From: a virus
Virus record (IMG/VR): IMGVR_UViG_3300017969_000006
Coordinates: 35,772 to 99,771 of that record
DNA: 64,000 nucleotides
Strand: one strand, 5' to 3'
The notes beneath the pieces are model-generated. The model had not been told where the DNA came from. It saw only the letters and a program-made list of their open reading frames with translations, and did not search any database. Within the stretch, counting starts at the first letter, position 1, and each line of letters begins with the position of its first letter. Positions 23,390 to 50,243 of the stretch are shown in pieces. Both the position numbers and the translations under genes were made by a program.

Positions 23390-25375
23390 ATGGCATGGAA
23401 CTCCTTTGAAAAGAAGTCACTCAACAACATTGAGTCGAAAGCCGCACGGGTGTCGGTCGGTGCGCCCATTGCCAACAACCCCAGTTACGCCGGAAAAGGT
23501 TACCGAGACCCTTGGGACATTGAACGTGCGTACAAAGAGGGGATGCAGAAAGTTGTCTGGGTATCGCGATGCATCGACGCGATTGCCGGCAACCAAGCGC
23601 GACTACCAGTAATTCTTCGGCAAAACAATGATCCCGAAGGAAAGATCGTTACCAAAAAGAATCTTGGAAACGGCAGCATTCTCGACATCCTGAACACGAA
23701 GGCGAACGAAGGCGAAAACTCCTTCATCTTCCGTTACAGGCTTTCCGCCCAACTTCTGATGAGCACACGAGGTGCTTTCATTGAGAAGATTAGGGGGCGC
23801 GATGGTCGAATTATCGGGCTGAACTTGCTTCCCCCTCAGTACACGTCACCAATTCCTGACCCGAGGCGCTTCGTTGCTGGCTATGAAGTGCTCATGCCTA
23901 ACGGCGAGAAAATCATCATGAAGCCAGATGATGTCATTTGGATTCGCCGTCCGCACCCCATTGACCCATACCTGTCGATGACTCCAATGGAATCAGCAGG
24001 TATCGCGATCGAAATCGAAAACCTTGCGAAACTTTATAACCGCAACTATCTCATCAACGATGGCCGACCGGGTGGTCTCCTTGTTCTCAAGGGAGAAATC
24101 GACGAGGATGATAAAGATGAACTACGTAATCGTTTCCGAGGAAATCTTGGACGCACCGGCGCAACAACGGTAATCGCCGCTGATGATGGTGTTGACTACG
24201 TCGACACCTCGTCGAGCCCCCGCGATGCTGCTTACATTCAGATGCGGCAAATCACGAAAGAAGAGATTCTCGCCTCCTTCGGCGTGCCTGAATCGGTCAT
24301 CGGTAATGCTGCGGGTCGAACATTCTCGAATGCTGCCGAGGAAATCCGAGTTTTCTGGATTGAGACGATGATGCCTCACTTGGAGCATCTTGCTCGAGGG
24401 CTGGACGAAGCAGACGAGAAGCATTATGTCGACTTCGACACCTCTGAAGTTCCGATCCTTGTGATTTACAAGCAGGAGCGGGAAAGATACCTGCTCGATG
24501 AACTCCAGCAAGGTCTCATCACCCCAAATGAATACCGCGAGGCAACCGGTCGGAAAAAGGTGGAATCAGAACTTGCCGATTCCATGTTGATGAATCCCAA
24601 CCTCACGCCTGTCGGAAACACAGAAAAACCGATGCCCGGGCCAGAAGCGCAAATGGGTGGAGGGGCCCCCGGAATGCCGGGAGCGATGCCGGGAGCGATG
24701 CCCGGACAACCGGGAGAAACGCCAGCGGCAATGCCGCCGCAGCAGCCGGGCGCCGCACCGCTTGATCCAAACACCATGCAGGGCGCTATGGCGGCTGAGC
24801 AGGCTCCGATGGAAACAACTAACGTTGAGCCACCGGAAGGACAGTTGGCGGATCCGGCGTTCGGTAATGTGAATACCAAATCTGACATAGATGCCGATCT
24901 TGAGCGTTGGACTCAAATCCTTGAGCGGTCACTTGAAAGGCTTGTTGAGCGACAGCAGCGAGTTGTGCTTGAAAAAGTAAGTGGTCAGAAAGCGCGAAAA
25001 GCACTTGCCGAGGGAACAATCGATCCGGACAGCGTAATGCCATTAGACGTCTGGACGAAGCAGTTGGAAGAAGACATTCTTCCTGTCTTGAACTCAATTA
25101 TGAAGGACGGGCAGGGTTTTGATGTGAAGTCGGAAAATAACGACGACATGGTTGTTCATGCCAACGCTGCACTCAGTCGCATTAAAACTGTGGTTTCTGA
25201 TACCCGCACGTTTTTGGATATTGAGATCAATAAGTGTATGGCCATTCCAGACGGTGAATTGCGCCTGAAAGTGCTTCGTTCTGCGCTTACAGGGCATTTT
25301 GCCTATCTGATGGGCAAGAAGGTTAACGAGATTGCGACCGCAGAGGCTCGCAGGGCTTGGAAATTGGCCAAGTAG
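23390..25375 (+). CDS. HK97-family portal protein with Pro/Gly/Met linker and C-terminal helical extension
   Basis: WVSRCIDAIA, NDGRPGGLL, EEILASFGVPESVIG, GLITPNEYREATG. Confidence 0.93.
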   Translation: MAWNSFEKKSLNNIESKAARVSVGAPIANNPSYAGKGYRDPWDIERAYKEGMQKVVWVSRCIDAIAGNQARLPVILRQNNDPEGKIVTKKNLGNGSILDILNTKANEGENSFIFRYRLSAQLLMSTRGAFIEKIRGRDGRIIGLNLLPPQYTSPIPDPRRFVAGYEVLMPNGEKIIMKPDDVIWIRRPHPIDPYLSMTPMESAGIAIEIENLAKLYNRNYLINDGRPGGLLVLKGEIDEDDKDELRNRFRGNLGRTGATTVIAADDGVDYVDTSSSPRDAAYIQMRQITKEEILASFGVPESVIGNAAGRTFSNAAEEIRVFWIETMMPHLEHLARGLDEADEKHYVDFDTSEVPILVIYKQERERYLLDELQQGLITPNEYREATGRKKVESELADSMLMNPNLTPVGNTEKPMPGPEAQMGGGAPGMPGAMPGAMPGQPGETPAAMPPQQPGAAPLDPNTMQGAMAAEQAPMETTNVEPPEGQLADPAFGNVNTKSDIDADLERWTQILERSLERLVERQQRVVLEKVSGQKARKALAEGTIDPDSVMPLDVWTKQLEEDILPVLNSIMKDGQGFDVKSENNDDMVVHANAALSRIKTVVSDTRTFLDIEINKCMAIPDGELRLKVLRSALTGHFAYLMGKKVNEIATAEARRAWKLAK

Positions 25376-25485: not shown

Positions 25486-27168
25486 ATGCCCACTAACGAA
25501 CTTACCGATCTCGAAATCAAAGCAGCGCCAGCCGGCCAGATGACCGTAAATCAGGCAAAAGGCATCGTCGAGGCTTTCGTTGCAGGAATTGGCAACAAAG
25601 ACTCTGTGGGCGATATTTGCGCCTCGGGAGCGTTCAACGCGAGCCTTAAGCGCCGCAAGCCACGCGTGGTGTGGGGACACAACTGGAATGACCCAATCGG
25701 TAAAGTGCTTGAAATCTATGAGGTTCCGGCTACCGACCCCCGCCTTCCGGAAAAGATGAAACGTGCCGGAATCGGTGGACTTTACGCAAAAGTTCAGTTC
25801 AACCTCAACAGTGAAAAAGGACGCGAAGCGTTCGCAAATGTCCAATTTTTCGGTTTAGAGCAAGAATGGTCAATCGGATACAAAACGCTCGACGCCATTT
25901 TCGATCCCGCCAAGCAAGCGAATGTTCTCAAAGAAGTCGAACTTTACGAAGTCAGCCCAGTTCTTCATGGCGCAAACCAGTTGACGGGAACAATTTCCGT
26001 AAAAGCAGCGAAGCAGAAACTGCGCGACCCCAAGGGTGGGCTGACCGCCGCTGGGCGACGTCACTTCAACCAGACCGAAGGATCGAACCTCAAGCCGGGC
26101 GTTAAAGGTCCTGCTGATACGCCGCAAAAAATGCGTCGGAAAGGCTCGTTTCTGACTCGCTTCTTCACAAACCCATCCGGGCCAATGAAAAAGCCGGACG
26201 GCAAGCCGACTCGCCTCGCACTTTCAGCGGCTGCATGGGGCGAACCAGTTCCACAAAACCGCAGTGACGCAGCCAAACTCGCCGCAAAAGGACGTCGACT
26301 CCTTGAACGCTACGAGAATGCGAAGAAAAAAGATGCTGATTGGGACGAGGAGCAAATCGACTATACGGTCTTTGAGAACTTCTTCGCCGAGGATAACCCC
26401 GAGTTCAAAACGCTCGAAACTGACGAGGGATTCTCTATTAACGATATTGAAATCGACGAGGTCGACGAAAAGGGCCACTACATGATGCGTATGGTTCCAC
26501 GCAGAGCCCCAGAAAGCCCCCGCCGTGACATTTTCGCAGAAGGCGAAGCGCAATCCCTCAATGCGGAGAAGCGAAACGCCCTTGAAATGGAAATTGCTTC
26601 ACGAACCCAGATGCCGATCAAACTCATTGAGGCGACGGAAAACTTGGCTGTCTTTGCTAAGAGTAAGCCAGATGGTACTAAGAAGTTTTACCGCCTTCCA
26701 TACCACTGGGACACTGAAACCCAGCAATACATGTTTGGCAAGCCAGAGCGCGTCGAGCCAGCGATGATGTGGCGCCCACGGAAGCCACGCGTCGTCGTCC
26801 CATCACAAATGCCGTCAATGCCGGTTGAAGTAAAGCCTCAAGGTGAAGGGCGAGGCGAGTACAACAACCCTGTAACCGTGAAGTTTGAAGAAGATGAGAA
26901 AAGCGCAATCGATCAAATGATGGAGTGGCTTGATGAATCTGAAGATGTCGAAATGAAGGAAGATGCTGTTCGCTTCATCATCGAATGCGACATGGAAGAT
27001 GCCTTCAACGTGAAATCTGCATTCGACCCAATCTTCGATTACTACAAAGTTGACGTCGAAGTTACTGAAGATGGAATTGAAGTTCTGTCAGAGGCTTCTG
27101 ACGACTTCTTGAATGCCATTGCGGTTGCTTCCAAATCGATCTTCGGGGAGACCGAAAAAAAAGTCTGA
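25486..27168 (+). CDS. HK97-type prohead protease with DUF6321-like domain and acidic tail
   Basis: GNKDSVGD, WGHNW (His), EWSIGY (Ser), ELYEVSPVLHGAN; DPKGGLTAAGR...PTRLAL...W; ATG 25486 with AAGGAG (ORF track start GTG 25468). Confidence 0.92.
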   Translation: MPTNELTDLEIKAAPAGQMTVNQAKGIVEAFVAGIGNKDSVGDICASGAFNASLKRRKPRVVWGHNWNDPIGKVLEIYEVPATDPRLPEKMKRAGIGGLYAKVQFNLNSEKGREAFANVQFFGLEQEWSIGYKTLDAIFDPAKQANVLKEVELYEVSPVLHGANQLTGTISVKAAKQKLRDPKGGLTAAGRRHFNQTEGSNLKPGVKGPADTPQKMRRKGSFLTRFFTNPSGPMKKPDGKPTRLALSAAAWGEPVPQNRSDAAKLAAKGRRLLERYENAKKKDADWDEEQIDYTVFENFFAEDNPEFKTLETDEGFSINDIEIDEVDEKGHYMMRMVPRRAPESPRRDIFAEGEAQSLNAEKRNALEMEIASRTQMPIKLIEATENLAVFAKSKPDGTKKFYRLPYHWDTETQQYMFGKPERVEPAMMWRPRKPRVVVPSQMPSMPVEVKPQGEGRGEYNNPVTVKFEEDEKSAIDQMMEWLDESEDVEMKEDAVRFIIECDMEDAFNVKSAFDPIFDYYKVDVEVTEDGIEVLSEASDDFLNAIAVASKSIFGETEKKV

Positions 27169-27194
27169 GGGGTCGCGCTCAAAGTTTCGACCCC
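27154..27194 (+). other. Putative -1 programmed frameshift signal (A AAA AAA + 6-nt spacer + GGGGTCG/CGACCCC hairpin)
   Basis: A8 at 27155-27162; stem 27169-27175 pairs with 27188-27194; the -1 frame is open into ORF 27315..30038. Confidence 0.7.
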
Positions 27195-30038
27195 AACGCT
27201 GTAGATGGTGACGAGGACGGTCTCGTTCAGGAGGGCACCCCCTTCGAGCGTCCAGCCACACCCAATGTCGCTCGCGCCCTTAGGAGCGCCACAAGTTCCG
27301 CCGGATTCGACGGGATGAAACGCGACGATATGGCGAAAATGCGTTCAGAAGAATTCAACGAGGCGGTACAGAAACAGTTCGAAAAAGCAAAGGAACTGAG
27401 GGCCGAACTGTACGAGAAATATCCAAAACTGGATGCGATGCTTGCAGCGCAGCAGATTGCGACCGTCACTTCAGTTCGCACCGGTCAGGACATCCGTGAA
27501 GAAGATGTCATGGAAGAACTTCAAGATCTGCTGAAGATCGATAGCGACGAAATCGACGACCTAGCAGACATCATCGCCAGTACACGATTCAGCCAAGACC
27601 TCCTCGAAGCGGACGAAGCGCAAATGTCAATTTCTCGCGCTCGAGATTTCGTTGAGGAAACAACTGAGGACATGGGGAACATCTCGCTCGCAATCACCGA
27701 CATGGAAGAAGACGTAGAAACCGCTCTTGACCGAATCAAGAAAGAACTTGACGGCATGGAGATTTCTACAGGGCAATTCAAAGATCTTGCTGAATCCGAT
27801 GACCGTGCCGACGCAACCCGCAGGCTACTCACTGATTTGATTGACGACCGAGAAGAACTTGAGCAACAGATTCCTCAAATGGGCTACCTTCTTGAAGATT
27901 ACGACGAGGTCAAGGAGATGCGCGATCAACTCAAAGACCTCGTAGATGAACTCGAAGAACTTTCAAGTGGACCTGTTGAATCTAGGGAGCGGGGACGAGA
28001 TCTGCTTAAGCAAGGTTTCCTGAACGCTGACTCACTAAACACGGGGTACGACGAAGACAAGTTTCGTGAGATGCTTGGAAAGTTCCGCAAGACAAAGACT
28101 TACGAGCGTGCCACCGAAGGGATGACAATCGTCCGCAAGCGCAGTATTCCAAAATCTGAACCCGTTGCTGACAGCGACGCCGCAAGGGACATTCATGGAC
28201 TTGGAAAGCGCAGCATCATCAACATCCCGGAAACGGGCGTTCAGGTCATGCTCAACGATGATCAACGTGGCGATGCTCGTCGCACCATCGCTGGTCTCAG
28301 GTCATCAACACAAAATCCTGATGCTTTCGAGAAGATGGACGAGTGGCTTTCCGGTAAATCGCCCAATATTTCGCGAGATCAGCATGAGGAGATTTTCAAC
28401 GAGTTCGCAGATGCCGCCAACCGGGATTTGGATCTTGGAGACCTCCGACACGTCCGTGACGCGATCAACTTGGCGGCAATGTCTGAAGATGGAAAATGGA
28501 AAACGCCAAAGGCTGAGGGTGGATTCGATGGAAGACCAAAACCCGCTGGTCTGACTAAGCGCCAAAGAGCAGATTTGTTGGAGTGGGGGCAAAACGACGC
28601 AGATGACATGCTGCGTAGACGCTTCGTTGGTCTGAAAGAAGATGATGTGTCCCCCAAGGGGTGGATGATGCTCCGCAACGATTTTGGCGGTGGCATGCGT
28701 TCAGCAACTGGCGGTGGAAGCATCAATGAAACGCGTGACACCGGCAAGCGAGCACAGCGAGGTAGGCCGGTTGGCGCTGGTGATGAGAAGAAATTCAAGG
28801 GCAAACCGTTCTCGGAAGTAAAACCTGACAATTGGGATCAGTTGACTGCCGATGAGAGGTTTGACGAACTTCTTACGAATTTGCACCCTTCTAAGACCGG
28901 TCTTCGAGAAGTTGACTTCAACCGTTTGAGAAAAGAACTGGTGCTGGAGTCTCTCCGCTCAGATCAGGAAAGCGAGCGTGCTCGACGTCGGGCTCAGCGT
29001 CGGGAAGCGCTGGCGAACGTCAGGGTAAGCAAACCAACTGAGCGCCCTGCTGCTCGACCTGCTCCAGTTGCTACAACCGCTGAACAAGCCAAGAAGCAGC
29101 GTCAGCAGGAAGTCACGAAAATCGGCAACCGAGTTGCCCGTATTTCGTCAAATATTGACAAGCAGTTCGAGAGAGACGAAGAACGTGGTTTGGACCCCAA
29201 CGATGAGTCCCATAGAGATATTTGGGCGTCACTTACCGACATTTTGGAAGATAGCGATGAGTTAACCCTGTCTCAAGCAGAATCCATCGCTGCAACCCTT
29301 GACGACTACCTAGAAGAAGCATCCGGAGCAGATCTTACTGCAACCGAATCAAACAGTGTCCAAAATGCTCAGGTTCTTCGCGCAGATATGGGCGATCTGA
29401 TTGACAGATATAGGCTTGACCCGAATATCAGCAAGGGTGACAGTTCAGCGGCGGTCCGAATTGGCGGCGAAGGTGAAGAAGATGTCGCCACCACCGGCCG
29501 CTCCGCCGCACGATTCCTTTCCGAAGGCGGAATGCGATCATTTACCTCATACAAGCCTTCCCCAACCGTCCAAGAATACGCAGAAGCACGCAGAAGCCAA
29601 GGGCTACGCAGTCAACAGGCTGGACGAACCGTAATCAATGAGGAAGCGACATTCTTCAAGGCAATCGAAGATTCTCTGGCAAAAGAAATCAGAGAAGCAC
29701 GTAACGCCAACGATTCACGAACGGTTAAGGGGCTTGAACTACTTCAGCGAATTATGCGTCGTCAAGATTCAGGCAAAGTCTCGGATCGTCGAACCAACGC
29801 CGGCGCACTTTGGGTGACGGCAGACGAAGCCGATGAGATTTTGGACGCGATGATGTTTGCCCTTGACCGACAAATGGAAACAGGCGGATCTAGGGTGGAC
29901 CTGTATGCACAATTTGTCGAAATTATCTCGGCTGCCGCAATGGGGACATTCATCAGCAAGACGACCTCGGAGGTTTCGTCACGAACCCAAGCACGAACGA
30001 ACAGTCAAGGACGACAAGTAAATATCCCGAATCAGTAG
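27162..30038 (+). CDS. Tagged cargo protein 1 (frameshift extension of the protease; ORF track 27315..30038)
   Basis: -1 frame reads SLRGRAQSFDPNAVDGDEDGLVQEGTPFERPATPNVARALRSATSSAGFDG, then continues into MKRDD...; largely helical, five [GA][LM]RS motifs. Confidence 0.75.
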   Translation, partial: SLRGRAQSFDPNAVDGDEDGLVQEGTPFERPATPNVARALRSATSSAGFDGMKRDDMAKMRSEEFNEAVQKQFEKAKELRAELYEKYPKLDAMLAAQQIATVTSVRTGQDIREEDVMEELQDLLKIDSDEIDDLADIIASTRFSQDLLEADEAQMSISRARDFVEETTEDMGNISLAITDMEEDVETALDRIKKELDGMEISTGQFKDLAESDDRADATRRLLTDLIDDREELEQQIPQMGYLLEDYDEVKEMRDQLKDLVDELEELSSGPVESRERGRDLLKQGFLNADSLNTGYDEDKFREMLGKFRKTKTYERATEGMTIVRKRSIPKSEPVADSDAARDIHGLGKRSIINIPETGVQVMLNDDQRGDARRTIAGLRSSTQNPDAFEKMDEWLSGKSPNISRDQHEEIFNEFADAANRDLDLGDLRHVRDAINLAAMSEDGKWKTPKAEGGFDGRPKPAGLTKRQRADLLEWGQNDADDMLRRRFVGLKEDDVSPKGWMMLRNDFGGGMRSATGGGSINETRDTGKRAQRGRPVGAGDEKKFKGKPFSEVKPDNWDQLTADERFDELLTNLHPSKTGLREVDFNRLRKELVLESLRSDQESERARRRAQRREALANVRVSKPTERPAARPAPVATTAEQAKKQRQQEVTKIGNRVARISSNIDKQFERDEERGLDPNDESHRDIWASLTDILEDSDELTLSQAESIAATLDDYLEEASGADLTATESNSVQNAQVLRADMGDLIDRYRLDPNISKGDSSAAVRIGGEGEEDVATTGRSAARFLSEGGMRSFTSYKPSPTVQEYAEARRSQGLRSQQAGRTVINEEATFFKAIEDSLAKEIREARNANDSRTVKGLELLQRIMRRQDSGKVSDRRTNAGALWVTADEADEILDAMMFALDRQMETGGSRVDLYAQFVEIISAAAMGTFISKTTSEVSSRTQARTNSQGRQVNIPNQ

Positions 30039-31713: not shown

Positions 31714-34700
31714 ATGGCCAACATCCGGGCCGAACGAGTAATACTTTCTGATCGCGTCAACACCTATCGACGTGATTACGAAACCATTGGTGCTCTCTTT
31801 CGGATAAAGAGTGCGGTACTTGCTTCCCAAGAGAGCCTTGACCCAAACATCTCTGTAAAAGCGTTAAATCAGGATCTTCCCAAAAAAGATAAAAAAGATT
31901 CTGAGAAGCGCACTTCTGGTACGGGAGTTGAAGAACAACTCCCCGAACTTCGCTATGCGCCTAACGGCAAACGTGGCCGTGGCGACGTACTCAAACTGCA
32001 TGTAACCCCACGCGACCTCACAACTGGCAACGAACCAAACTTTGGTTGGATTCCTGCTCCTGAGAAAAAATCCGAAGAGGAAACACGCAAACAAATGCGT
32101 GAACTGTTGGATTGGAAGAAGCGCCGACCCAAAGTTCGCGTCAGGAGTTTTCGTGCTGACCCAAGAACAGGTCAACGAGTAGAGGATTCCGGTGTCGATG
32201 TCGAAGTAAAAGGACTCGGCAGAAAACTGAACCAGATTGTTCCCGGAGGGAATTTGTCCTCACGTGCGGCTGGGGCAGTTGGAGTACTAACTGACGCAAA
32301 CGGGAAATTCCGATGCCCGCCCGGAACCCCGGCAGCCAACCAGTTCACCGATGAATTTGGTACAAACTGTTTCAAACCAGCACTCTCCTCGCGTCGACTC
32401 ATTGGAGCGATGCGTCGGTGGTTCGACAAATATGTTGAACTCGGAGAACAAATCCAACTGCTTGAAAGCATGGGCATATACGGTGTCGGGCCAGACGACC
32501 TAACCCCTCAATACAGGCAAAACATCCGAAACATGGTTCGGGCTGCTGGAAGTGTTGCGCCAAAAGAACGCGTCCAAGAAGTTCAATCCCGAATGGACAC
32601 CGCAATTGATGCCCTCCAAACACGACTTGGAACGACTCGCGACACCACAGACAATGCCGACATGTGGACCGCGCTGGCAACGCTGGCCGCCGATGAATGG
32701 CAAGACCTTGACTTCTCAGGGATTTTTTCCGGACCGGAAGGCTGGGGTTCGTGGAACAAAAACATGCTTGCCGACCCAAAGGGTCGCACTCCTCAAGCAG
32801 CAGCAGATCACACTGCCGACGTTCGTAGCCAATACATCTCAATGTTTGACAACTGGGTGTCGGACGGCCCAATGCGCCAAAGGTACCGAGATGGAGACCC
32901 CGAAGCCAGAGCCCTCATTGACGAAATGGTTACCCGCCATCTGGCAGCAGAGCGTGGCTTCTTAAAGGCGATTCTTCAGGAGTATCAAGAATCCCCGGAA
33001 ATCATGCGTCAAGTAAAGACGCTAGGCCGAACGCAAATCCGTGATGGCGAGGCGTTTGATGACTATTGGCGAGTAGATGGAGAATGCAGCCCGGCAGGTT
33101 TCCACCCCAGAGATGGGTTCGCTCTGAATATTGACTTCAACGCGGCAGCAGTGGCTCTGAAACCAGCAATCCAAAACGGACTAGCAAATTACACTTCTGA
33201 CGGCCGCATCCTCTTATTCGATATCGACCCCAACGATGTGTCTCGCTCATTCACTTCGGAAGCCGAACAGTGGGCCGAAATCGGAAACCTGATGCAGAAC
33301 ACCGTCGATCTTGAACGGTGGCGAAATGTTTACGCTCAAGACCTTTCTACCGCACGCCACGGCTCAATCGAAGCAAAGGGTGTGCATATCGCAAAACATG
33401 AACTTGGTCACGCCCGCCAGTACCAGTTCATTAAAAATGCCGTCTTGGACACCCACGCCAAAACAGGCTCCACCTACTTAGTCAACTCAACTTCAGGTCA
33501 AATTGAACGGCTCGACGTTTCTCCCGATCAGTGGACTAACCAGCAATGGGTTGATGTGGTGACGAGTCAGGTTCAACGTCTTATCCCAGAAAAGTACCTC
33601 GCCGATGGCTTCCCACCGACGTCGCTTGAGACGTTCGAAGGAACAATGCTTCACATCATGGCGGGAAGGTATTACCAAGACGAAGTTCAAAATTTCTTCA
33701 ACTTGAATGATGATGCCAAACGAGGACAGTCGGCATTGATGATGCTCGAAGGCATGACAGAATTGCGCGCGCTTCGAGATATGGGTGTCCTCATGGATCC
33801 AGAACTCGACCGGCTCGTGTCATGGATGGACGACGTTGACCCCAGAACACCGGAACGCCCTGATCCGCAAGGAGTTATCTGGCCGCCGCCGACAAGTTCA
33901 GCAATGCAAGTGTTCCAGCCGGATCCCAATGGAACGTGGGACACAATTAGCCGCACCCCGATTGAAGATCCAAACCCGTTCATTCCTGACCTTGGCGGAA
34001 AACAGGAACATATCGATGCCATCAATTCACGCATCTCAAGTCTCAATCGCAGTCTTCCCGACGCCGAAAGAGACCTTTTTGATCCAAGAAGCGAAGTCGT
34101 CGAAATCCAGAACGGCAATGACGTTGTCGAACAACTGAGAAGTGGCAAAACCGCTCTCGACATTGAAAACCTGACGGTTAAGAAACAGCAAATCATTGAC
34201 CGCGAAGTACTTGCTGAGGACATCGCAGCAACAGGAGAAATCGACGATGTTGGGGATCTCGAGGTCGGCGATGCCATCCGATTCAAAGGATTCAAAACAC
34301 TTGATCGCCGCATGGATGCTGATCAAGAACAAGACCTTTCGGCTGACGAAGGAAAACGGAAAGTCAACTTTGTTCTACCTAAGGGAACAAAAGGCATCGA
34401 AAAACAAAACCCGGCGAACAACGAGCCCGATCAGGTTGAGATTCCCGGCGGAGAATACGAAGTCCGTTCTGTTAACCCAGATGGAACTGTCACGCTAGTT
34501 CCCCGCAGCCAAGATGATGCCGACACCGTTGCTCGTCGCCTCATCGACAGTCTTGATGGAAGTTCCGACATAGACGACGTTCGCGATGCTGTAAGAACAG
34601 TTCAGAAACGGGCGCAGAAGTACGTCCAGAAAAAGGAAAAGATTCGTCGAGCCACGCGATCCAGCGACCCGGCCACCGCACAACGTATGGAGCGGCGCAA

Positions 34701-38959: not shown

Positions 38960-41445
38960 GAGCAGTACTAATTGGTCAAGTTAGAAAAAACCCGGTCTAC
39001 TACGACCTAGACGGAAAAGAAACTGACGCGTTCGTTGTCGATAAAGAAAACAACGTTGTTCCGGTCAACGTTATCTCCCTCATTGGCAAAGGCCTCATAG
39101 AACCCATCAACGACTCCGACTTCACTGACTTCTTTTGGAATGGTTCCAAAGAGAGCAGCAAAAGATGGGAAAACATTTTTATCCATCGCGTTCAAGATGT
39201 GCCAGACAAACTGTTGCGTGGAGTTCAAATGCTTACCACTCCACCAAAAAAGAAGAATCCGGCGCGATCGAAAGCCGTTGAGGAAAAAGCGCTGAGAGCA
39301 GATGCCTACAAAGCGCTTGTTGAGAGCGAGCAGCACGAGAAAGCACTGGGTCGAAGTCTAAATCGATTCGGTGGAAGGGCTACTGCGGGTGTTCGTGGAT
39401 TCGTTCGTAATGCCCGATGGGACCCTGACGCATTGGATGCTGACGGTGATGGTTGGGTTCAGGAAGGAACACAGTTCGCTCGTCGGATAACCGGTGCTAA
39501 TGTGACGAAACCGAATAAGCCTTCTCCACCCGAAGTCAACGTTGAGCACTATCGCGCGCTTAGAAGTCAACAAAGGCGCAATTATCAGAACTATCTAAGC
39601 GGATCGATCAGTGAACGACTTGCAAAACGTAAAGCGCGATTCTACATCGACCGCATGGAGAAAGTTGACCAAATGATCGAAAGCCGTTTCTCTGACGGCA
39701 AGCGAATCAAGACCGTTGGCGATATGCGTAAAGCGTTTGAACGTGCTCATCCGGGTTTCATTACAGGTGACAGCACTGCCGAATACTTGAATAGCGCAGA
39801 TCCTGATGAGGAACTAAAAGACACGGTTAGGGAACATGGCTACATGTTTCTTTTGGCACTTATGTCGAATCCGGACCTAACGAAAGCAAACTGGAAATTC
39901 ACTAAAGTTGATCCATCCGAAGAGTTTTCTGGCGCCGCTGCTTTCAAAGGGCCGAACAAAATCGACAGACTTGGAAAAGCACGAGATTTGCCTCGAAACC
40001 GAAAAATGCTTATCGAGATCTCCTACAAAGATGAATTTCCCGAAGCGAAATTTAGAGATGCGCAACAAATGGATGCTCGTTTACGTTTGCAACTTGAGAA
40101 CACCAAGATTATTGCGTCCATATTGAGGTCTGATTTGCCAGACGATGAGAAGCAGGAGTTTGTTCGTCGTTTTCATGCTCGCTCAACAGCATTCCACGAA
40201 ATGACACATGGAAGCATGTATTTTAAAGCGTTCACAGATTCATTGGCGTCAGTCGGTTTACAGCCTGACGAAAAAACCGACGCCGATGCGATCTTGGATG
40301 AGGTGTATACAGCAATATCAGATTTAGCACCAGAAAAAGCATCCCTTCTTGCCGATCAATTCTGGGCAGAAACTATTGCCATGCCAGTTGCATTAGTCAA
40401 CCGTGTCTTGAATTATCTTATGCTTCGTTCCAGTATGGATCCAAGAGCGAAATCAACCATGCTTGATGCGATCAATGCGGATCTCACGGATGGTCAACCC
40501 AATGCCCCTGAACCATTGCGTGTCTCAAAGAAACTCTCCGCGTTTCTTAATGACAAGCAAATCCCGAAAAATCTTGCTAAGCCAAACGATCCACAAGATA
40601 CAACCTTCGAAGAAGGTGACGCTTTATCAATCAACTCGACTATGAACATACTTGCGCATCTGGTCAACGACTTGGGTTCTGGAAATGGTTACCAGAATAG
40701 GCTTCCGTGGGCTGGACGGAAGGCAGTTAACTTTGGTAAGAGCGAAGATGACATTGCCCTGAATTGGCCGCTCCTCTTGGAACATGGAATTCCAAATACA
40801 GACCTTGATTCAGAAGATGTAAAAACATTGCTTATGGCAAATATTCGCATTGGAGAAGTAATCTCGGAAGTGCTTCAATCAGGTAATCCAGACAGCATCA
40901 GGAATTTTGCTGCTATTGCGGCAAGTAACCAAACACAAATTGCTCCCGCTGTTTGGTTGGGCCTTACTGGGAATATCGCAAATCAAAGCATGCGTGAAGC
41001 ATACGTTCAATCCAGTATTCGAGGGGGAGTATCGCAACTTTGGGAAAGCGTTAAAGCAAGCGGCACGGACCGTGATCGAGGAAGAATCATTGACACCCTC
41101 GCCTTACTCTTGGGCGTATGGGACGACCTGACCCCACAGCAACGCGATCTTGCTAAGAACTATGCCGCAATGTCGGGTGGCGGTCTTTATGCTTCGTACG
41201 CTGGATATATCACTAACTTCACGCAGTTGGGTCGAGTTTTCGATGGACTCAACTATGAACTGCTCGCCGAACTTGGCCCCTTAGCCCTATTCGGCAATGT
41301 GGCAGAAATGGCGGATGAACAGGCTGGCGGGATTCGCGAACTTGACCCATCTGAACCAACATATGAAGCATTGCAGAAATTGATTTCGTGGCTGTGGCCC
41401 GAACTCCCCTTCGCGTTAAACGGTAAAGAGAAGGCAAAGTCATGA
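38956..41445 (+). CDS. Tagged cargo protein 2, zincin-like metallopeptidase
   Basis: HEKALGR, WDPDALDADGDGWVQEGTQF, ALRSQQ; HEMTH (40195) and distal LYASY...ELLAE (41257). Confidence 0.7.
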   Translation: MRAVLIGQVRKNPVYYDLDGKETDAFVVDKENNVVPVNVISLIGKGLIEPINDSDFTDFFWNGSKESSKRWENIFIHRVQDVPDKLLRGVQMLTTPPKKKNPARSKAVEEKALRADAYKALVESEQHEKALGRSLNRFGGRATAGVRGFVRNARWDPDALDADGDGWVQEGTQFARRITGANVTKPNKPSPPEVNVEHYRALRSQQRRNYQNYLSGSISERLAKRKARFYIDRMEKVDQMIESRFSDGKRIKTVGDMRKAFERAHPGFITGDSTAEYLNSADPDEELKDTVREHGYMFLLALMSNPDLTKANWKFTKVDPSEEFSGAAAFKGPNKIDRLGKARDLPRNRKMLIEISYKDEFPEAKFRDAQQMDARLRLQLENTKIIASILRSDLPDDEKQEFVRRFHARSTAFHEMTHGSMYFKAFTDSLASVGLQPDEKTDADAILDEVYTAISDLAPEKASLLADQFWAETIAMPVALVNRVLNYLMLRSSMDPRAKSTMLDAINADLTDGQPNAPEPLRVSKKLSAFLNDKQIPKNLAKPNDPQDTTFEEGDALSINSTMNILAHLVNDLGSGNGYQNRLPWAGRKAVNFGKSEDDIALNWPLLLEHGIPNTDLDSEDVKTLLMANIRIGEVISEVLQSGNPDSIRNFAAIAASNQTQIAPAVWLGLTGNIANQSMREAYVQSSIRGGVSQLWESVKASGTDRDRGRIIDTLALLLGVWDDLTPQQRDLAKNYAAMSGGGLYASYAGYITNFTQLGRVFDGLNYELLAELGPLALFGNVAEMADEQAGGIRELDPSEPTYEALQKLISWLWPELPFALNGKEKAKS

Positions 41446-44404: not shown

Positions 44405-47400
44405 AACAGTACGCTTTAGTAAAGGACATGGTTAACGGCTCGTCTTACTATGGCGTTGTCATCCGTGAAAATGGGCTTACCGAATGCAAAGGTGTTTCAG
44501 GTGTAGGCGAAAAGTGGGCGGAATCTTACAACAACGCCGAAACTAAGTCCCTTGACGATGGTCTTCCCTATGGTGTGAAAATCGGAGAATTCCATGCGTT
44601 GACTCAAAGCGAGGAAATCCTTGTCGAACACATGCTTGACGGCAACACTGTTCGTTTCCCAGACAGAACTCAACTGAAGCAACTGTCTTTCCACAAAACA
44701 GACGCTAATTCAAGCCTTCCTGCCGTTTCAAACACGCCGCTTTCAGCATTTTTGATGGATGACCTGCAAACCGCAGTTGACTACAAGATTCGCGCTTTCC
44801 TCTCCGACTCTGCGAGAGCGTCAGTGATGCTGAAGTCACGTCTTGAAAGATACGGCATCAGCGACACAACTGTCGGCTTCAAGTCTGCAAGCAATAACAG
44901 TTTCCTGAATGAAGACATGTCCAGTGTGGCTCGTGGACATGGCAATCTTCGACGTGCGCTGTTGGATATCAGAGACGCAAAATCAACCTTCCTAGAAAAT
45001 CATCCGGGATATCAGGTTGGAATCGAGGAAAAAGCAATCGGGCGTAGCCTCGGTCGAGGTGCGCGCATTGGCAGACGTGCGGCTCGCGCCTTCAAGCCAT
45101 ACGACCCGAACGCAATCGATGGCGACATGGACGGAATTGTTCAAGAAGGAACACCTTGGGAACGTCCAGCAGTCAGAGTTGGTGGACGTGGCGTTCGCTT
45201 AACCCCAACGCAGCAGCGGGCAAGAAGCGAAATTGCTCCAGATGTCGGGATGCGTAGCCGGACGGGTGATGGAGAAAGCATTCAGGACAGGCTTACAGCG
45301 GCGCGTAACAGTCGACAGCAAAAACTTGCCGATCGCATGCGTGAAATGGGTTTCGACGATGACAATCAAAAAGAAATCAATGACTGGCTGAGAACCTTTA
45401 ACCCGGAAGATTTCGAATATACCGACATTGATGATCTCGAGATTGAAGGTCTGACCTCGCGCCGTGGCTCATCCAGCCCTACCGGCAGCATTTTTGGTCA
45501 GCGCCGTTACTCAAGCGAGGATTGGATCGAAGGCCAACTCGATGAGGGGCCGCTTGCTGGTTCTTTCTTTGAACTTCGAACCGCACGCGATTACACCGAA
45601 AGCAACTTTAATGATCCGGGTGAAACGCTCGGTGGTAATGATGAGTTGACTGTTTACACGCCTGATGGTGTCGTTCTCAGTTTCGAAAACGAAACATGGG
45701 AAGACTCTTTGGACCTTATCAATGTCCGCGCACCGGGCGGTGATGGCCTTCGGTCAAGAAGTCGACGCGGGGATGACGAGGACTACCCTCGTATCGACCC
45801 CGATCTCATCAACAGGTTGCGAAATGAACGATTTGTTCCCGAGACAAGTCGTTCTGGTCGTGCACGTCAAAACCGCATCATTAACACCCCGAACGCTGAT
45901 GGTGGTCCACCACGTCGTGCAGTCCGGGAGCGCTCTGGCCGAGTTGTCCCAGAACCACCGGCACGTGATCGGAGCGGACTGCGCAGCAGGACCGGTGACA
46001 CCGCCAACAGAAATGCCGAATTGACCGGTGTAGGAACAACCGTCCCCAAAGCCATGAAGGCAAACAGGAAGTTCTTCCAAACACTTGCTGCCAACGGATT
46101 CGTTTGGGACGACAAGCCTGACACCAGTGGCAGAGTTAGGATTTTCCTACCCGACCGCATGTCCGACTGGACACTTGACCAGCCCGACAGCGTCCGTAAT
46201 CAGTGGGGCAAATTCAAACCAGCCCGCGAAAATCAGGCAGCCGGCTTCATTCACGTACACCCCGGCAAGGACACGCCACAACGTCCTGAAAACATGGCGA
46301 AACGTTTCCTGCGCACCATTTTTGGCGACACCGCATGGGACGACATGGAAGCAAACGCCAAGAAACCCGGCGATAAGCGCGGCACTGGTCGAATCGGAGT
46401 AATTCCTTCAACTAGCACCGGCGCGACTGGATTGCGTTCCGCAACGTCTCGTGCTCGCACTCGTACTGCCTCAACGGAAAGAGTAGCAACGCCCACCACA
46501 ACCGGACGAAGCCTCCGCTCGGGCCAACTGCGCAAACTTGGAAAGCCCGGTGTCGCAAGAGGTGAAAGCGACGGAAAAATCTGGGAACAATTGGATGACA
46601 ACCAACGCGATTTGTTCAAGCAATTTGCACAGGCGCGTGAAGTTCAGTTGATGCGGAATCTCACTCAGGATGCGAGAATGCGAAAGTTCCGCAACAAGAT
46701 GATAGATGATGGCGATTTCGACGAAATCGACGAGGACGGCAACGTTGTGCGGAATTACAACAAACCGCTTGCTCGAAACATCATCCCATTGGCGCAACGA
46801 GAAATTGACGATCTGCTTCGCGATGAAAAAATCACGGAGGAAACCCACGTAAAGTGGCAGAAAACTTTGGACGACATCAAGACGTTGCGCAACATGAAGG
46901 AAAGCGACAACTACGAAGCGCTGGAGCACCTGCATCCGGCAAGTCGTGCCAAGATCATCAAGGACGCTCGGGGTGAAGATTCAAGCATTCCGGGTGTTCG
47001 TGCACTGAAGGCTGATGGTCCGTCAACGTTCTTCGGTGATCAAGCCCGTACAGCCAGTGGTCGTAGCGCCGGTAAGAATCGGAAACCGAAAAGGAAGCGG
47101 CCTTTCGCTGACCGCATTATCACACCGAATGTTGAACGACTACAGCGTCGGGCGGCTCGTCGTCAACGAGCACAAGCGATTCGTCGGGGAGGCCTTGTTC
47201 GCGGTCAAGAGGCTGACGTTTCTGCAACGCAAAATGCTCGACGCAAACTGGCTCGTCAACTTCGTCGAGCACGACGCAGATTTAAAGGAGAACGCGACGA
47301 AAGAGCGATCCGTAAAATCTTTGACGAAAAGAAGAAAAATCACCCATTGGCCCGTACAAAAGAAGGCGCTCCAGAAGTCAATGACAAGTACGTTGATTAC

Positions 47401-48255: not shown

Positions 48256-48639
48256 ATGAGTGATACAACTAACGAATGGGGCGAAGATCTGCAAGAGGTA
48301 GAGCGTCGACAGCAATTCACCGACCGGTTTAACGAGTTGATGGACTTGACCGACTACCCGCCATTTTCAATCAATCTTGAAAAACACAACGAGTATCGCG
48401 AAGAAGTCATGGCCTACAGCGTGAAAATCTCTGAACAAATTCGTGAAAGCGACGCAATCGAAGATCGACCATTCTCAACACTTATGGCGAAATGGGAAGA
48501 TGACCTTGACGAGGCCAAACTCTACAAACAGCGTTATGGTAGGGATTTTGTTGGCGCCCAGAAAGCGGCCGCAAAGAATGACGGCATCTCCATGCGTGAC
48601 GTAAAGCCCATCGGACCACCATCAGCATATAAAGACTGA
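48256..48639 (+). CDS. Small protein after the 1281-aa gene (candidate immunity/partner)
   Basis: 127 aa; ATG lies 6 nt after its own TAAACT box. Confidence 0.6.
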   Translation: MSDTTNEWGEDLQEVERRQQFTDRFNELMDLTDYPPFSINLEKHNEYREEVMAYSVKISEQIRESDAIEDRPFSTLMAKWEDDLDEAKLYKQRYGRDFVGAQKAAAKNDGISMRDVKPIGPPSAYKD

Positions 48640-50243
48640 TGAATAAAGGGGCCGCCGGGAAAGCGCGAGCACTCCGACGCGCTAAAGAATTGGGATGCAC
48701 TGGTGCACACAAACATCCTGACGGCGGCTGGATGGCATGCTCCACCCATGAAGAGTACGAGCGTTTAGAAGCCGAAGAAGAGTCCGAGCAAGAAGAAAAA
48801 TCCGTTCTTTCTCGTGTTCGTGAATTCCAAAGTGTTCGCGAACGAAAAGGCAAACGCCGCAAAAAGAAAAATAAAAAGAACTGGGAAAAACTCGGTGAAC
48901 GTGGCGTTGTTTCAATCGACACAATCACTGGCGGCGGGCTCGTTTCGGGCGCTGTCGCTGGAAAAGTTGCATCAGCAATCCCCCGTGACGGAGAAGAAGA
49001 TGTTTTTACCGACATCAACTCAGCACGTCGAAGGGCGCGACAACTGGGATGTATCGGAGTTGCACGACGTCGTTCCACTGGCGGTCAAGTCGTATGGACT
49101 CCGTGTTCAAACATCACCGACTATGCGCGACGCACAGGAAGCACCGCCCTTGGCCGTCGATACATAGAACGAATGCGACGGCAAGAAGCGCGTCGAATCG
49201 TTGAAGAAGAACGCAAGCGCGGTCGCTACAAGCGTAAAATTTCCCTATTTGAAGAACTTCACGGGAAAGCGCTCGGCAGGAAAATCCGTCAGGCTGCTGC
49301 TGTTTTCGATGCCAATGCCACGGATGGTGACAACGACGGGATGGTGCAAGATGGCACCGCTTTTGCTAGACCAGCAATCCCCAAGGGTGTCGGTAAGTCG
49401 AAAACATGGAAAGACCTCATTGAGATGGAGCCCGGTTGGATGTCCGAGGCACCAAAAAACATTCAAAGAGCAGCGTCGCAGGAAGCGAGAGAAAAACACC
49501 GGAAATTACGTGTTTCTGGGCTTCGTTCGCAGCAAACCGGGTCCGGTGGTCGTGCTCAAGTGAGTCGAATCATGCAACAAGTCATGCCAGAGCATCGTGG
49601 AAAAGAGGATAGAACCCTCTATTTCATTGGCGGAACAACTGGTGCGGGGAAGTCAACTCTCACCCGAAATGACAGATTTGGGATACCGGGGCCTGATGCT
49701 GCTGCACATATTGACCCTGATGAGATTAAGGCCGGTTTGGTTGGCTGGGATAATGGCCGTGGTGCTGGTGCCGTTCACGATTCTTCACGACGAGTTACCG
49801 ATCACGCCATGAAAGCAGCGGCTGAGGAAAAAACCGATATGGTCGTTCAGGGTACTGGCAAGAGGACTGAGCACCTTCAAATGGCTCGTCAAAATGGATA
49901 TGCAACTGTTGGGCACTTTGTTCATATTCCCGGTGACGAAGCAGATCGCCGGATTGTTCAGCGAAATGCTGACAATAGGCAGAATGGTGGAGCGATAATC
50001 CCGGAATGGTTTGGGAGCCAGATTGGTCGTGAACTACAGCCGATTGTTCCTCGTCAAATTACATCCGGATTATTTGATGAATTCTTCTTGTGGGATAACA
50101 GCGGAGACACACCCGTTCTGATTGCTAAGCGCACCAAAGACGGAAATTACAACATCAATGATATTGATGCTTTCAATGATTTCTTTAGTCCGACCGGAGC
50201 CGAGTACGTCAAGAACTACTGGGATAGTAAGTCAAGTAGTTAA
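48639..50243 (+). CDS. Tagged cargo protein 4: two DUF3721-like repeats plus zeta-toxin-like P-loop kinase
   Basis: AKELGCTGAH...WMAC and ARQLGCIG...WTPC; HGKALGR, FDANATDGDNDGMVQDGTAF, GLRSQQ; GGTTGAGKST, HIDPDEIK, VVQGT, LWDNS. Confidence 0.8.
   Translation: MNKGAAGKARALRRAKELGCTGAHKHPDGGWMACSTHEEYERLEAEEESEQEEKSVLSRVREFQSVRERKGKRRKKKNKKNWEKLGERGVVSIDTITGGGLVSGAVAGKVASAIPRDGEEDVFTDINSARRRARQLGCIGVARRRSTGGQVVWTPCSNITDYARRTGSTALGRRYIERMRRQEARRIVEEERKRGRYKRKISLFEELHGKALGRKIRQAAAVFDANATDGDNDGMVQDGTAFARPAIPKGVGKSKTWKDLIEMEPGWMSEAPKNIQRAASQEAREKHRKLRVSGLRSQQTGSGGRAQVSRIMQQVMPEHRGKEDRTLYFIGGTTGAGKSTLTRNDRFGIPGPDAAAHIDPDEIKAGLVGWDNGRGAGAVHDSSRRVTDHAMKAAAEEKTDMVVQGTGKRTEHLQMARQNGYATVGHFVHIPGDEADRRIVQRNADNRQNGGAIIPEWFGSQIGRELQPIVPRQITSGLFDEFFLWDNSGDTPVLIAKRTKDGNYNINDIDAFNDFFSPTGAEYVKNYWDSKSSS

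What the first reader, a model, noticed from the sequence alone, without database searches (positions are those of the whole stretch)
27154..27314. Hidden -1 frameshift fuses the prohead protease to a 958-aa cargo extension
Seen: the protease ends GAA AAA AAA GTC TGA. Six nt after the A8 run is a 7-bp GC stem (GGGGTCG 27169-27175 / CGACCCC 27188-27194), the classical slippery site-spacer-hairpin geometry. The -1 frame is open from 27162 into ORF 27315..30038. The 51 codons before the annotated ATG encode the full conserved tag (EKK-SLRGR..FDPNAVDGDEDGLVQEGTPFERPA..ALRSAT) and have no ATG or evident RBS of their own, so they are most simply explained as translated via the shift. The product would be about 1,520 aa. 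Inference: frameshifting sets the ratio of free protease to protease-cargo fusion. Phage frameshifts are best known in tail chaperone and capsid/tail genes, not the maturation protease.
Basis: partly seen in the sequence, partly recalled or inferred. Interest (0 to 1): 0.85.

Follow-up and report, generated by a model that had tools for sequence, protein, structure and literature searches.

The report
Slip site joins phage protease to cargo
In an uncultured salt-marsh phage, the head-maturation protease gene ends in a run of eight A's where a one-base backward slip would fuse it to a 958-residue downstream protein, and the same slippery site is kept in every related phage examined, so this looks like a family-wide recoding signal rather than an error or a dead gene.

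Summary
The protease ORF (25486..27168) ends GAA AAA AAA GTC TGA. The -1 frame is open from 27102 to 30038, has no ATG, GTG or TTG before 27315, and encodes the conserved tag. A 7-bp GC hairpin starts 6 nt after the A-run.

A8 is not an assembly error. Logan contigs from two DNA runs and two RNA-library runs match it exactly, and the 560-aa protease was called on 29 contigs.

All 59 related loci with DNA carry protease and cargo in one frame. That would normally suggest a broken gene. But every one (26 distinct junctions) has an in-phase slippery heptamer, G_GGA_AAA or A_AAA_AAA, at the homologous codons. These codon choices are used for 1% and 4% of the same dipeptides elsewhere in those genes. 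Most also have a hairpin 4-8 nt downstream, and the closest clade shows a local drop in synonymous change.

The nearest relative (83% identical protease) stops at the same Lys-Lys, on the contig that carries an intact 904-aa cargo gene.

Best reading (about 0.72): programmed -1 frameshifting. The window is the polarity-flipped form of a dnaX-like site: zero frame gives free protease, -1 frame gives the fusion. No protein evidence exists and the cargo's function is unknown. Unchecked notes from this scan flag a similar case in another genome.

The parts
25486..27168 (+). Prohead protease gene (zero frame, 560 aa from ATG 25486; GTG 25468 is the first possible start). It holds a Peptidase_S78 domain, DUF6321 and a roughly 300-aa C-terminal region, and ends ...ETEKKV-stop.
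   Evidence: Pfam PF04586 (47 bits, cutoff 21) and PF19846; PHROG head maturation protease. GAAGGAG lies 7 nt before ATG 25486. The exact 560-aa protein was called on 29 contigs.
27145..27150 (+). SD-like GGGGAG, 5 nt upstream of the heptamer. A possible stimulator, unproven.
   Evidence: Read from the sequence. Relatives have G-rich GGnGGTGG here, but those bases are Gly codons, so their conservation is ambiguous.
27156..27162 (+). In-phase slippery heptamer A_AAA_AAA, part of the A8 run 27155-27162. This is the proposed -1 slip site. It encodes the Lys-Lys of a predicted K|S maturation cleavage motif.
   Evidence: It is the only A8/T8 run in the window. The homologous codons in 59 of 59 fused relatives are G_GGA_AAA or A_AAA_AAA.
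27166..27168 (+). Zero-frame stop TGA, one codon after the heptamer, lying inside the spacer.
27169..27194 (+). Hairpin with a 7-bp GC stem (27169-27175 with 27188-27194), starting 6 nt after the heptamer. The 3' arm lies in the Phe-Asp-Pro codons of the tag.
   Evidence: MFE -14.1 kcal/mol, z -2.4. Nearly all relatives have a GC hairpin 4-8 nt after their heptamer. A helix in a common register shows 74% pairing, changes on both sides at 5 of 6 pairs, and 0 of 500 shuffles as good.
27162..27314 (+). 51 codons in the -1 frame with no ATG, GTG or TTG. They encode the three-part tag: K|SLRGR, the acidic box FDPNAVDGDEDGLVQEGTPFERPATP (27186-27263), and ALRSAT.
   Evidence: The acidic box matches the fused relatives at 23-25 of 27 residues, while 14-17 of 27 third codon positions differ.
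27162..30038 (+). -1 frame continuation: 958 codons plus the stop. It has five [GA][LM]RS motifs and a conserved C-terminal domain of about 150 aa with an unknown fold.
   Evidence: Homologous to the C-terminal two thirds of 1552-1683-aa protease fusions.
27099..27101 (+). Last stop (TGA) of the -1 frame upstream of the slip site. The two frames overlap over 27102-27168.
   Evidence: No other in-phase X_XXY_YYZ heptamer lies in the overlap (read).
39334..39570 (+). Second copy of the three-part tag, inside the 829-aa protein (starts at residue 127). No slippery heptamer at its K|A site.
45025..45260 (+). Third copy of the tag, inside the 1281-aa protein (starts at residue 209). No slippery heptamer.
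49260..49535 (+). Fourth copy of the tag, inside the 534-aa protein that also carries DUF3721 and a Zeta-toxin/AAA_33 kinase-like domain (starts at residue 208). No slippery heptamer.

Best explanation
The heptamer A_AAA_AAA at 27156-27162 is a programmed -1 ribosomal frameshift site.

Most ribosomes read GTC and TGA and release a 560-aa free protease that ends ...EKKV. A fraction pause over the heptamer, held up by the GC hairpin 6 nt downstream. Their two tRNA-Lys slip back one base, and they read on through 958 codons. That product is a 1517-aa protein: protease, then tag, then the large downstream protein.

The slip rebuilds the motif K|S-L-R-G. This motif also opens the tag in three other large head-block proteins and resembles the predicted delta-domain cut in the capsid protein (FK|SIG). 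Inference: the fusion is carried into the prohead by its protease part and then cut at that junction.

In every relative with DNA the same site sits inside a single in-frame fusion gene. There a -1 slip would end translation 2-12 codons later and give free protease, as in dnaX tau/gamma. The window's lineage is therefore the polarity-flipped version of an ancestral recoding site. Either polarity gives two products with a common N-terminus, and slip efficiency sets their ratio.

Shown: the sequence anatomy, A8 at contig level, heptamer and hairpin conservation, and purifying selection on the tag in the -1 frame.

Inferred: that ribosomes actually shift, how often they do, the cleavage, and the packaging role.
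For: 1. The anatomy is exact: in-phase heptamer, 6-nt spacer, 7-bp GC stem (-14.1 kcal/mol, z -2.4) and an open -1 frame.

2. It is not a sequencing error. Contigs from two DNA runs and two RNA-library runs are identical over 26700-27700, or for one RNA contig over 26968-27245. The 560-aa protease was called on 29 contigs.

3. The 1552-1683-aa homologues are continuous across the junction, reading ...GGGSKK-ALRSLRG...FDPNAIDGDEDG... The window reads ...ETEKK + SLRGR...FDPNAVDGDEDG only if the frame is shifted at the A-run.

4. In all 59 fused loci that hold both protease and the cargo C-terminal domain (26 distinct junctions), the homologous codons form G_GGA_AAA or A_AAA_AAA. Elsewhere in the same ORFs, Gly-Lys is coded that way in 4 of 402 cases and Lys-Lys in 16 of 404.

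5. In the closest clade, synonymous differences fall to 0.067 over GGSKKALRS, against 0.51 overall. This is the lowest value within +-140 codons.

6. Hairpins follow the heptamer in nearly all relatives, with compensatory changes.

7. The nearest relative's protease P0016 (83% identity, seen on 2 contigs) ends ...GGGQKKA-stop at the same Lys-Lys. The same 49-kb contig carries an intact 904-aa cargo gene, P0004 (67% identity). The split is therefore shared by two diverged lineages and the cargo stays under selection.

8. Tag DNA differs from the fused relatives at 14-21 of 27 third positions of the -1 frame, but at only 0-6 first or second positions.

9. The A8 is the only such run in 64 kb, against 7.6 expected.

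10. The K|[SA][LI][GR] motif is completed only in the frameshift product. The three other tags in the window have no heptamer.

11. An A_AAA_AAA site with a stem-loop is a proven -1 frameshift signal in an IS cluster (PMC4066793).
Against: - There is no protein or ribosome-level evidence of a trans-frame product.
- Every relative for which DNA could be fetched is in-frame. Its A-run, hairpin and tag could not be inspected.
- The hairpin's statistical support is modest: z is -0.8 when 98 nt are folded.
- The stop shortly after the heptamer in the -1 frame of fused relatives is not unusual; the background median is 8 codons.
- The SD-like element lies only 5 nt from the heptamer, closer than the 10-14 nt that I recall as stimulating -1 shifts in dnaX.
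- Two ATGs (27315, 27339) could start a tag-less protein, and gene callers chose 27339.
- Three tag-bearing protease fusions with a different, short cargo lack the heptamer.
- Earlier follow-up reports of this scan found similar-looking protease/capsid splits in Shigella elements to be deletion pseudogenes.
Confidence: 0.72

Rival explanations
1. Tolerated break. A small indel split an ancestral fusion gene. The downstream protein is now made only from its own ATG (27315 or 27339) without the tag, and the 51 start-less codons are an untranslated relic.
For: All 59 relatives with DNA are single in-frame genes. Gene callers start the protein at 27339, and at the equivalent Met in the relative P0004. 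Several genes in this block also lack a clear SD, so a missing RBS is no obstacle. Earlier follow-up reports of this scan found look-alike splits elsewhere to be pseudogenes.
Against: - The tag is intact: 23-25 of 27 residues match the fused relatives, while third codon positions are near saturation.
- The split appears to be shared with a lineage whose cargo is only 67% identical. A neutral 153-nt stretch should have decayed over that time.
- The break lies exactly on a heptamer that is selected in all in-frame relatives.
- The K|SLRG motif is rebuilt only by the shift.
Confidence: 0.12
2. Same fusion product, but made by transcriptional slippage. RNA polymerase adds an extra A in the A8 run, giving a share of A9 mRNAs that read through in frame.
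For: Runs of A are known slippage sites; Thermus dnaX with A9 is recalled from memory. Sharma et al. note that AAAAAAA is under-represented in all frames, possibly because of transcriptional slippage (PMC4066793). A8/T8 runs are depleted in this window: 1 found against 7.6 expected.
Against: - Most relatives use G_GGA_AAA, which has only four A's and is a poor polymerase slippage site but a classical ribosomal one. The heptamer is always in the X_XXY_YYZ phase, which matters only to ribosomes.
- A hairpin at 4-8 nt is the ribosomal geometry.
- RNA-library contigs show A8, although contigs hide minor variants and may derive from DNA.
Confidence: 0.09
3. Termination-reinitiation. Ribosomes finishing the protease at TGA 27166-27168 restart at the overlapping CTG (27165-27167, CTGA). 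This gives a separate tag-bearing protein that is not fused to the protease.
For: The stop and the in-frame CTG overlap, and GGGGAG lies 14 nt upstream. In other phages many tag-bearing proteins start only 10-45 residues before their tag.
Against: - CTG is a rare bacterial start codon.
- The product would lack the K|S part of the motif.
- This does not explain why in-frame relatives keep a slippery heptamer there.
Confidence: 0.04
4. Homopolymer sequencing or assembly error. The genome really has nine A's and one continuous gene.
For: Homopolymer runs are error-prone on some sequencing platforms, and relatives are in-frame.
Against: - Four independently built contig sets agree on A8. Two of them are from RNA libraries recorded as paired Illumina.
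- The truncated protease was called on 29 contigs.
- A second lineage stops at the same place.
- The window differs from its in-frame relatives by a net 10 nt here, not by one A.
Confidence: 0.02

Closest known systems
E. coli dnaX tau/gamma programmed -1 frameshift (A_AAA_AAG, downstream stem-loop, upstream SD-like element)
   Same: A Lys-Lys heptamer, a hairpin a few nt downstream and a G-rich element upstream. Two products share an N-terminus, one long and one ending just after the slip site. The fused relatives have exactly this polarity: zero frame long, -1 frame short.
   Different: In the window the polarity is reversed: zero frame short, -1 frame long. The heptamer ends in A rather than G. 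The SD-like element is 5 nt away, against about 10 nt in dnaX (from memory). The gene is a phage head protease polyprotein. No Rfam frameshift element matches.
IS3-family orfA/orfB -1 frameshift (A_AAA_AAG or A_AAA_AAA plus stem-loop)
   Same: The polarity matches the window: the upstream ORF stops soon after the heptamer and the -1 frame gives the fusion. An A_AAA_AAA cluster with a stem-loop is reported as a proven case (PMC4066793).
   Different: The gene content is unrelated: transposase rather than virion assembly proteins.
Phage structural-gene frameshifts: lambda G/GT (G_GGA_AAG), T7 10A/10B, and the MSTV1-like capsid Ig-domain extension
   Same: A -1 slip adds a C-terminal extension to a fixed fraction of a virion protein. 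The heptamer is of the G_GGA_AAx type, as in lambda G/GT (from memory). In MSTV1-like viruses most members frameshift and one is directly fused (PMC11375127). That is the same fused-or-shifted variation among relatives seen here.
   Different: Here the gene is the maturation protease, the extension is about 960-2300 aa, and most members are fused with the site internal. My library searches found no report of frameshifting in a prohead protease gene.
Nested protease/scaffold genes (lambda C/Nu3, Mu I/Z) and protease fusion genes of actinophages
   Same: One locus gives a protease-linked form and a free form of a head-interior protein at a set ratio. Protease fusions to scaffold, capsid or MuF-like proteins, and very large processed virion proteins, are described (PMC7302621).
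   Different: The nested genes share a C-terminus through internal initiation (from memory). Here the two products share an N-terminus through recoding.

Membership tests
Programmed -1 ribosomal frameshift site | X_XXY_YYZ heptamer in phase with the upstream frame | tested here: met
   A_AAA_AAA at 27156-27162 is in the phase of the protease frame.
Programmed -1 ribosomal frameshift site | Downstream coding sequence in the -1 frame, open across the overlap, with no start codon of its own for the conserved part | tested here: met
   The -1 frame is open over 27102-30038 and has no ATG, GTG or TTG before 27315. The tag lies in that start-less part.
Programmed -1 ribosomal frameshift site | Stimulatory RNA structure 5-9 nt downstream | tested here: met
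   A predicted 7-bp GC stem follows a 6-nt spacer, at -14.1 kcal/mol and z -2.4. The support is modest and predicted only. Relatives have hairpins at 4-8 nt.
Programmed -1 ribosomal frameshift site | Conservation of the signal among relatives beyond what the protein sequence requires | tested here: met
   59 of 59 fused loci keep a heptamer, against 1% and 4% use of those codon choices for the same dipeptides elsewhere. Synonymous change is suppressed locally. For the one other split lineage, only the protein end (KKA-stop) is known.
Programmed -1 ribosomal frameshift site | Observed trans-frame protein product | not testable with these tools
   No proteomic or reporter data are available.
Transcriptional slippage site | Homopolymer long enough for polymerase realignment (usually 9 or more) and indel-bearing transcripts | tested here: inconclusive
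   The run is A8, and RNA-library contigs show A8. Contigs hide minor variants. Relatives mostly have only A4 within G_GGA_AAA.
Caudovirus prohead serine protease (Peptidase_S78, HK97 type) | Pfam PF04586 match above the gathering score, located in the head module | tested here: met
   47 bits against a cutoff of 21, over residues 29-176. The portal gene is upstream and an HK97-fold capsid gene lies at 50395-51711.
Known RNA frameshift elements in Rfam | Covariance-model match | tested here: not met
   No match at E up to 10 over 26900-27500.
Pseudogene (fusion gene broken by an indel) | Decay of the downstream part, or restriction to one recent lineage | tested here: not met
   The 958-codon frame is intact, the tag is conserved, and the split is shared with an 83%/67%-identical relative that keeps an intact 904-aa ORF.

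The most novel reading that the evidence does not exclude
A whole family of uncultured phages, in which the prohead protease is fused to a 1000-2900-aa polyprotein, carries an ancestral dnaX-like -1 frameshift site exactly at the protease/cargo maturation cleavage site. The site's polarity has flipped at least once, in the window's lineage. A flip should be nearly neutral only if slip efficiency is close to one half, or if the head tolerates a wide range of cargo doses. If so, recoding would act as the dosing device for internal head proteins.
Probability: 0.55. Interest if true: 0.78.

Novelty: new variant of a known kind. Interest (0 to 1): 0.66.

Why it matters
Programmed frameshifting in phages is well documented for tail chaperones and some capsid proteins. 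My library searches found no report of it in a head maturation protease.

Here a slippery site is conserved across at least 26 distinct lineages, exactly where the protease joins a very large internal protein. One lineage has the reading-frame polarity reversed. This gives a natural pair of constructs for asking how phages meter the number of large internal proteins loaded per head.

It also matters for annotation. The 51-codon tag and the 1517-aa product are missed by gene callers, and the in-frame relatives probably also make an unannotated short protease.

Tried and rejected
The DNA of the only other split lineage (P0016/P0004, Logan contigs) could not be fetched.
- No match for this region in the phage GenBank collection by blastn or tblastn.
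- The metagenome scan with a two-sequence alignment found nothing.
- DNA-pattern scans for an A7 run followed by the tag found only in-frame forms in IMG/VR and JGI metagenomes and nothing in GTDB genomes.
- 54 complete stand-alone protease ORFs without the tag showed no -1 tag downstream. Short proteases ending in ...K are ordinary stand-alone forms, not further flipped sites.

**Arguments tested and dropped**
- I considered the near stop in the -1 frame of fused relatives as evidence. I rejected it because the background median distance is 8 codons.
- The \"no RBS\" argument is weak because several neighbouring genes lack an SD.

**Annotation attempts that found nothing**
- Rfam: no frameshift element.
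- Cargo function: no Pfam or PHROG match and no PDB sequence match. The C-terminal domain model (pLDDT 72) has no significant match in PDB or BFVD by Foldseek.
- Literature: no paper on frameshifting in a prohead protease and none mentioning DUF6321.

**Limit of the read check**
- Read laying gave contigs only. Minor A9 variants in DNA or RNA cannot be excluded, and the RNA-library contigs do not prove transcription.

Full report
**1. What is in the sequence**

The window is the last 64 kb of a 99,771-base IMG/VR virus record from a salt-marsh metagenome.

The gene order around the finding is as follows:
- terminase, on the minus strand
- portal, 23390-25375
- a 560/566-aa protein with a Peptidase_S78 prohead protease domain and DUF6321, 25468/25486-27168
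- about 23 kb of large genes with no known family
- an HK97-fold major capsid gene, 50395-51711

The protease frame ends GAA AAA AAA GTC TGA. The A-run spans 27155-27162, so A_AAA_AAA (27156-27162) is in the X_XXY_YYZ phase.

The -1 frame is open from 27102 to 30038. It contains no ATG, GTG or TTG before 27315. Reading it from the slip site gives KK-SLRGR, then the FDPNAVDGDEDG... box, then ALRSAT, followed by the body of the downstream protein.

A hairpin with a 7-bp GC stem (27169-27175 with 27188-27194) starts 6 nt after the heptamer. It folds at -14.1 kcal/mol with z -2.4 over 38 nt. The z-score drops to -0.8 when 98 nt are folded.

Two features are unusual for this DNA. This is the only A8 or T8 run in the window, against 7.6 expected. 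The 71-codon stretch without a start codon is the longest among open frames of 300 codons or more; the median over frames of 150 codons or more is 9.

**2. Is A8 real?**

Twenty-four public runs hold part or all of the stretch. They are salt-marsh samples from 2018: 13 DNA runs and 11 RNA libraries.

I laid Logan contigs from two DNA runs and two RNA-library runs on 26700-27700. Three contigs cover the whole stretch and one covers 26968-27245. All cross the A-run with no difference and no gap.

The exact 560-aa protease ending EKKV was called on 29 contigs. The RNA libraries are recorded as paired Illumina.

An A9 genome misread as A8 is therefore very unlikely. Only contigs were available, so minor variants cannot be excluded. 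RNA-library contigs also do not prove transcription.

**3. Relatives**

*Protein search.* After the window's own record, the best match to the downstream protein is a 904-aa protein, P0004 (67% identity). The next hits are eight proteins of 1552-1683 aa that carry the protease domain.

In two of these that I read in full (P0005, P0006), the junction runs continuously as ...GGGSKK-ALRSLRG...FDPNAIDGDEDG.... The window gives the same series only if the frame is shifted at the A-run.

*In-frame fusions.* I fetched 62 IMG/VR loci by protein homology and more by DNA pattern. In every locus that holds both the protease and the conserved C-terminal domain of the downstream protein, the two lie in one stop-free frame. 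That is 59 loci with 26 distinct junctions.

Taken alone, this suggests that the window carries a broken gene. Earlier follow-up reports of this scan found exactly that for look-alike protease/capsid splits in Shigella elements, so I tested this rival directly.

**4. The in-frame relatives carry the same slip signal**

*Heptamer.* At the codons homologous to the window's A-run, every fused relative has an in-phase slippery heptamer:
- A_AAA_AAA in the closest clade (TCA AAA AAA GCR CTT AGG), and again in a separate clade whose junction reads PKK.
- G_GGA_AAA in all the others.

*Not a by-product of the protein sequence.* Elsewhere in the same ORFs, Gly-Lys is written as G_GGA_AAA in 4 of 402 cases and Lys-Lys as A_AAA_AAA in 16 of 404.

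*Synonymous suppression.* In the closest clade (five distinct sequences), the rate of synonymous codon differences falls to 0.067 over GGSKKALRS, against 0.51 overall. This is the lowest nine-codon window within +-140 codons.

*Hairpin.* Nearly all relatives have a GC-rich hairpin 4-8 nt after the heptamer, built from different sequences. A six-pair helix in a common register is 74% paired. Five of its six pairs change on both sides, and no shuffle out of 500 does as well. Some clades use another register.

*Specificity.* The three other copies of the tag in this window have no heptamer at their K|A site. Three relatives whose protease is fused through the tag to a different, short sigma-region-4-like cargo also have none. 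The heptamer is therefore tied to the junction between the protease and this particular cargo.

*One argument rejected.* In the fused forms a -1 slip meets a stop after 2-12 codons. That is ordinary for these ORFs, where the background median is 8.

**5. The split is not a recent accident**

The protease of the nearest relative, P0016, is 83% identical and was seen on two contigs. It ends ...GGGQKKA-stop, at the same Lys-Lys plus one codon. P0004 lies on the same 49-kb contig.

Its end differs from the window's (KKV-stop) in a way that a single base change would explain: GTC to GCC. In the -1 frame that change would be synonymous. This is an inference, because the DNA could not be fetched.

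Both lineages keep a downstream frame of about 900 codons intact.

In the window, the 27-codon acidic box differs from the fused relatives at 14-21 third codon positions of the -1 frame, but at only 0-6 first or second positions. That is the signature of translation in that frame.

**6. Likely function**

The same three-part tag occurs inside three other large proteins of the head block, 126-208 residues from their starts. Its parts are:
- K|[SA][LI][GR][GR]
- an acidic FDPNAxDGDxDG-type box
- a later [GA][LM]RS motif

The acidic box alone matches at least 70 other protein clusters. Many of those proteins begin only 10-45 residues before it.

The capsid protein has FK|SIG at residue 97. This is where a delta-domain cut would be expected for an HK97-type protease, which I recall cuts after Lys.

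The slip site therefore coincides with a predicted maturation cleavage site. Free protease made by termination (...EKKV) would be almost the same as the protease released by cutting the fusion (...EKK).

My reading is that the protease part carries the large protein into the prohead. Cleavage then frees it, and the slip frequency sets how many copies are loaded.

What the large protein does is unknown:
- It has no Pfam, PHROG or PDB sequence match.
- A model of its conserved C-terminal domain (pLDDT 72) has no significant structural match.

**7. Mechanism and rivals**

*Ribosomal -1 frameshifting* fits best. The heptamer phase is conserved. Most relatives use G_GGA_AAA, which has too few A's for polymerase slippage. 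The hairpin spacing is the ribosomal one.

*Transcriptional slippage* on A8 could contribute in the window.

*Restart at the CTG* overlapping the stop (CTGA) is possible. It would not explain the conserved heptamer and would lose the K|S motif.

*A tag-less protein made from ATG 27315 or 27339* remains the main rival. The intact tag and the shared, old split argue against it.

*Sequencing error* is essentially excluded.

**8. Comparison with known systems**

- The fused relatives look like dnaX tau/gamma.
- The window looks like an IS3 orfAB site, for which an A_AAA_AAA plus stem-loop case is reported as proven (PMC4066793).
- Variation between shifted and directly fused forms among relatives has a parallel in the capsid Ig-domain extension of MSTV1-like viruses (PMC11375127).
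- Protease fusions and very large processed virion proteins are known in actinophages (PMC7302621).
- I found no report of frameshifting in a prohead protease gene, and no Rfam element matches.

**9. Verdict**

This is a new variant of a known mechanism: a family-wide recoding site at the protease/cargo junction, with the window as its polarity-flipped form. All of the evidence is computational.

The decisive missing items are the DNA of the second split lineage, read-level counts of the A-run, and any junction peptide.

Noticed in passing
window 39334-39570, 45025-45260, 49260-49535 (and 27154-27290): Four otherwise unrelated large head-block proteins share an ordered tag: K|[SA][LI][GR][GR], an acidic FDPNAxDGDxDG-type box, then [GA][LM]RS. 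The acidic box alone matches at least 70 other protein clusters at 50% identity, often 10-45 residues from the N-terminus.
   Followed up: partly
window 48639-50243: A 534-aa protein combines DUF3721, the tag and a Zeta-toxin/AAA_33 kinase-like domain (Pfam E 7e-9 and 3e-6). It is a candidate packaged enzyme.
   Followed up: no
window 50395-51711: The HK97-fold capsid protein has a single K|SIG motif at residue 97. It resembles the K|[SA][LI][GR] motif at the start of each tag and fits a delta-domain cleavage site.
   Followed up: partly
L081, L082, L086 (protease ORFs of 960-989 aa): A clade of relatives fuses the protease, through EEK|AVGRK and the same acidic box, to a short Pro-rich cargo with sigma-70 region-4-like helices. 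Related proteins (P0104, P0105, P0109) carry PF04545 and/or PF08281. These have no slippery heptamer.
   Followed up: partly
window 31714-38742: A 2342-aa ORF directly downstream in the head block has no Pfam or PHROG match. It carries two G-L-R-S motifs.
   Followed up: no
window 55518 (+) and 38010 (-): Two other open frames of about 160 codons have 91-codon stretches without ATG, GTG or TTG. These may be chance frames overlapping real genes.
   Followed up: no
window 29442-30035: The conserved C-terminal domain of the downstream protein models as a helical bundle with a small sheet (mean pLDDT 72). It has no significant match in PDB or BFVD.
   Followed up: yes
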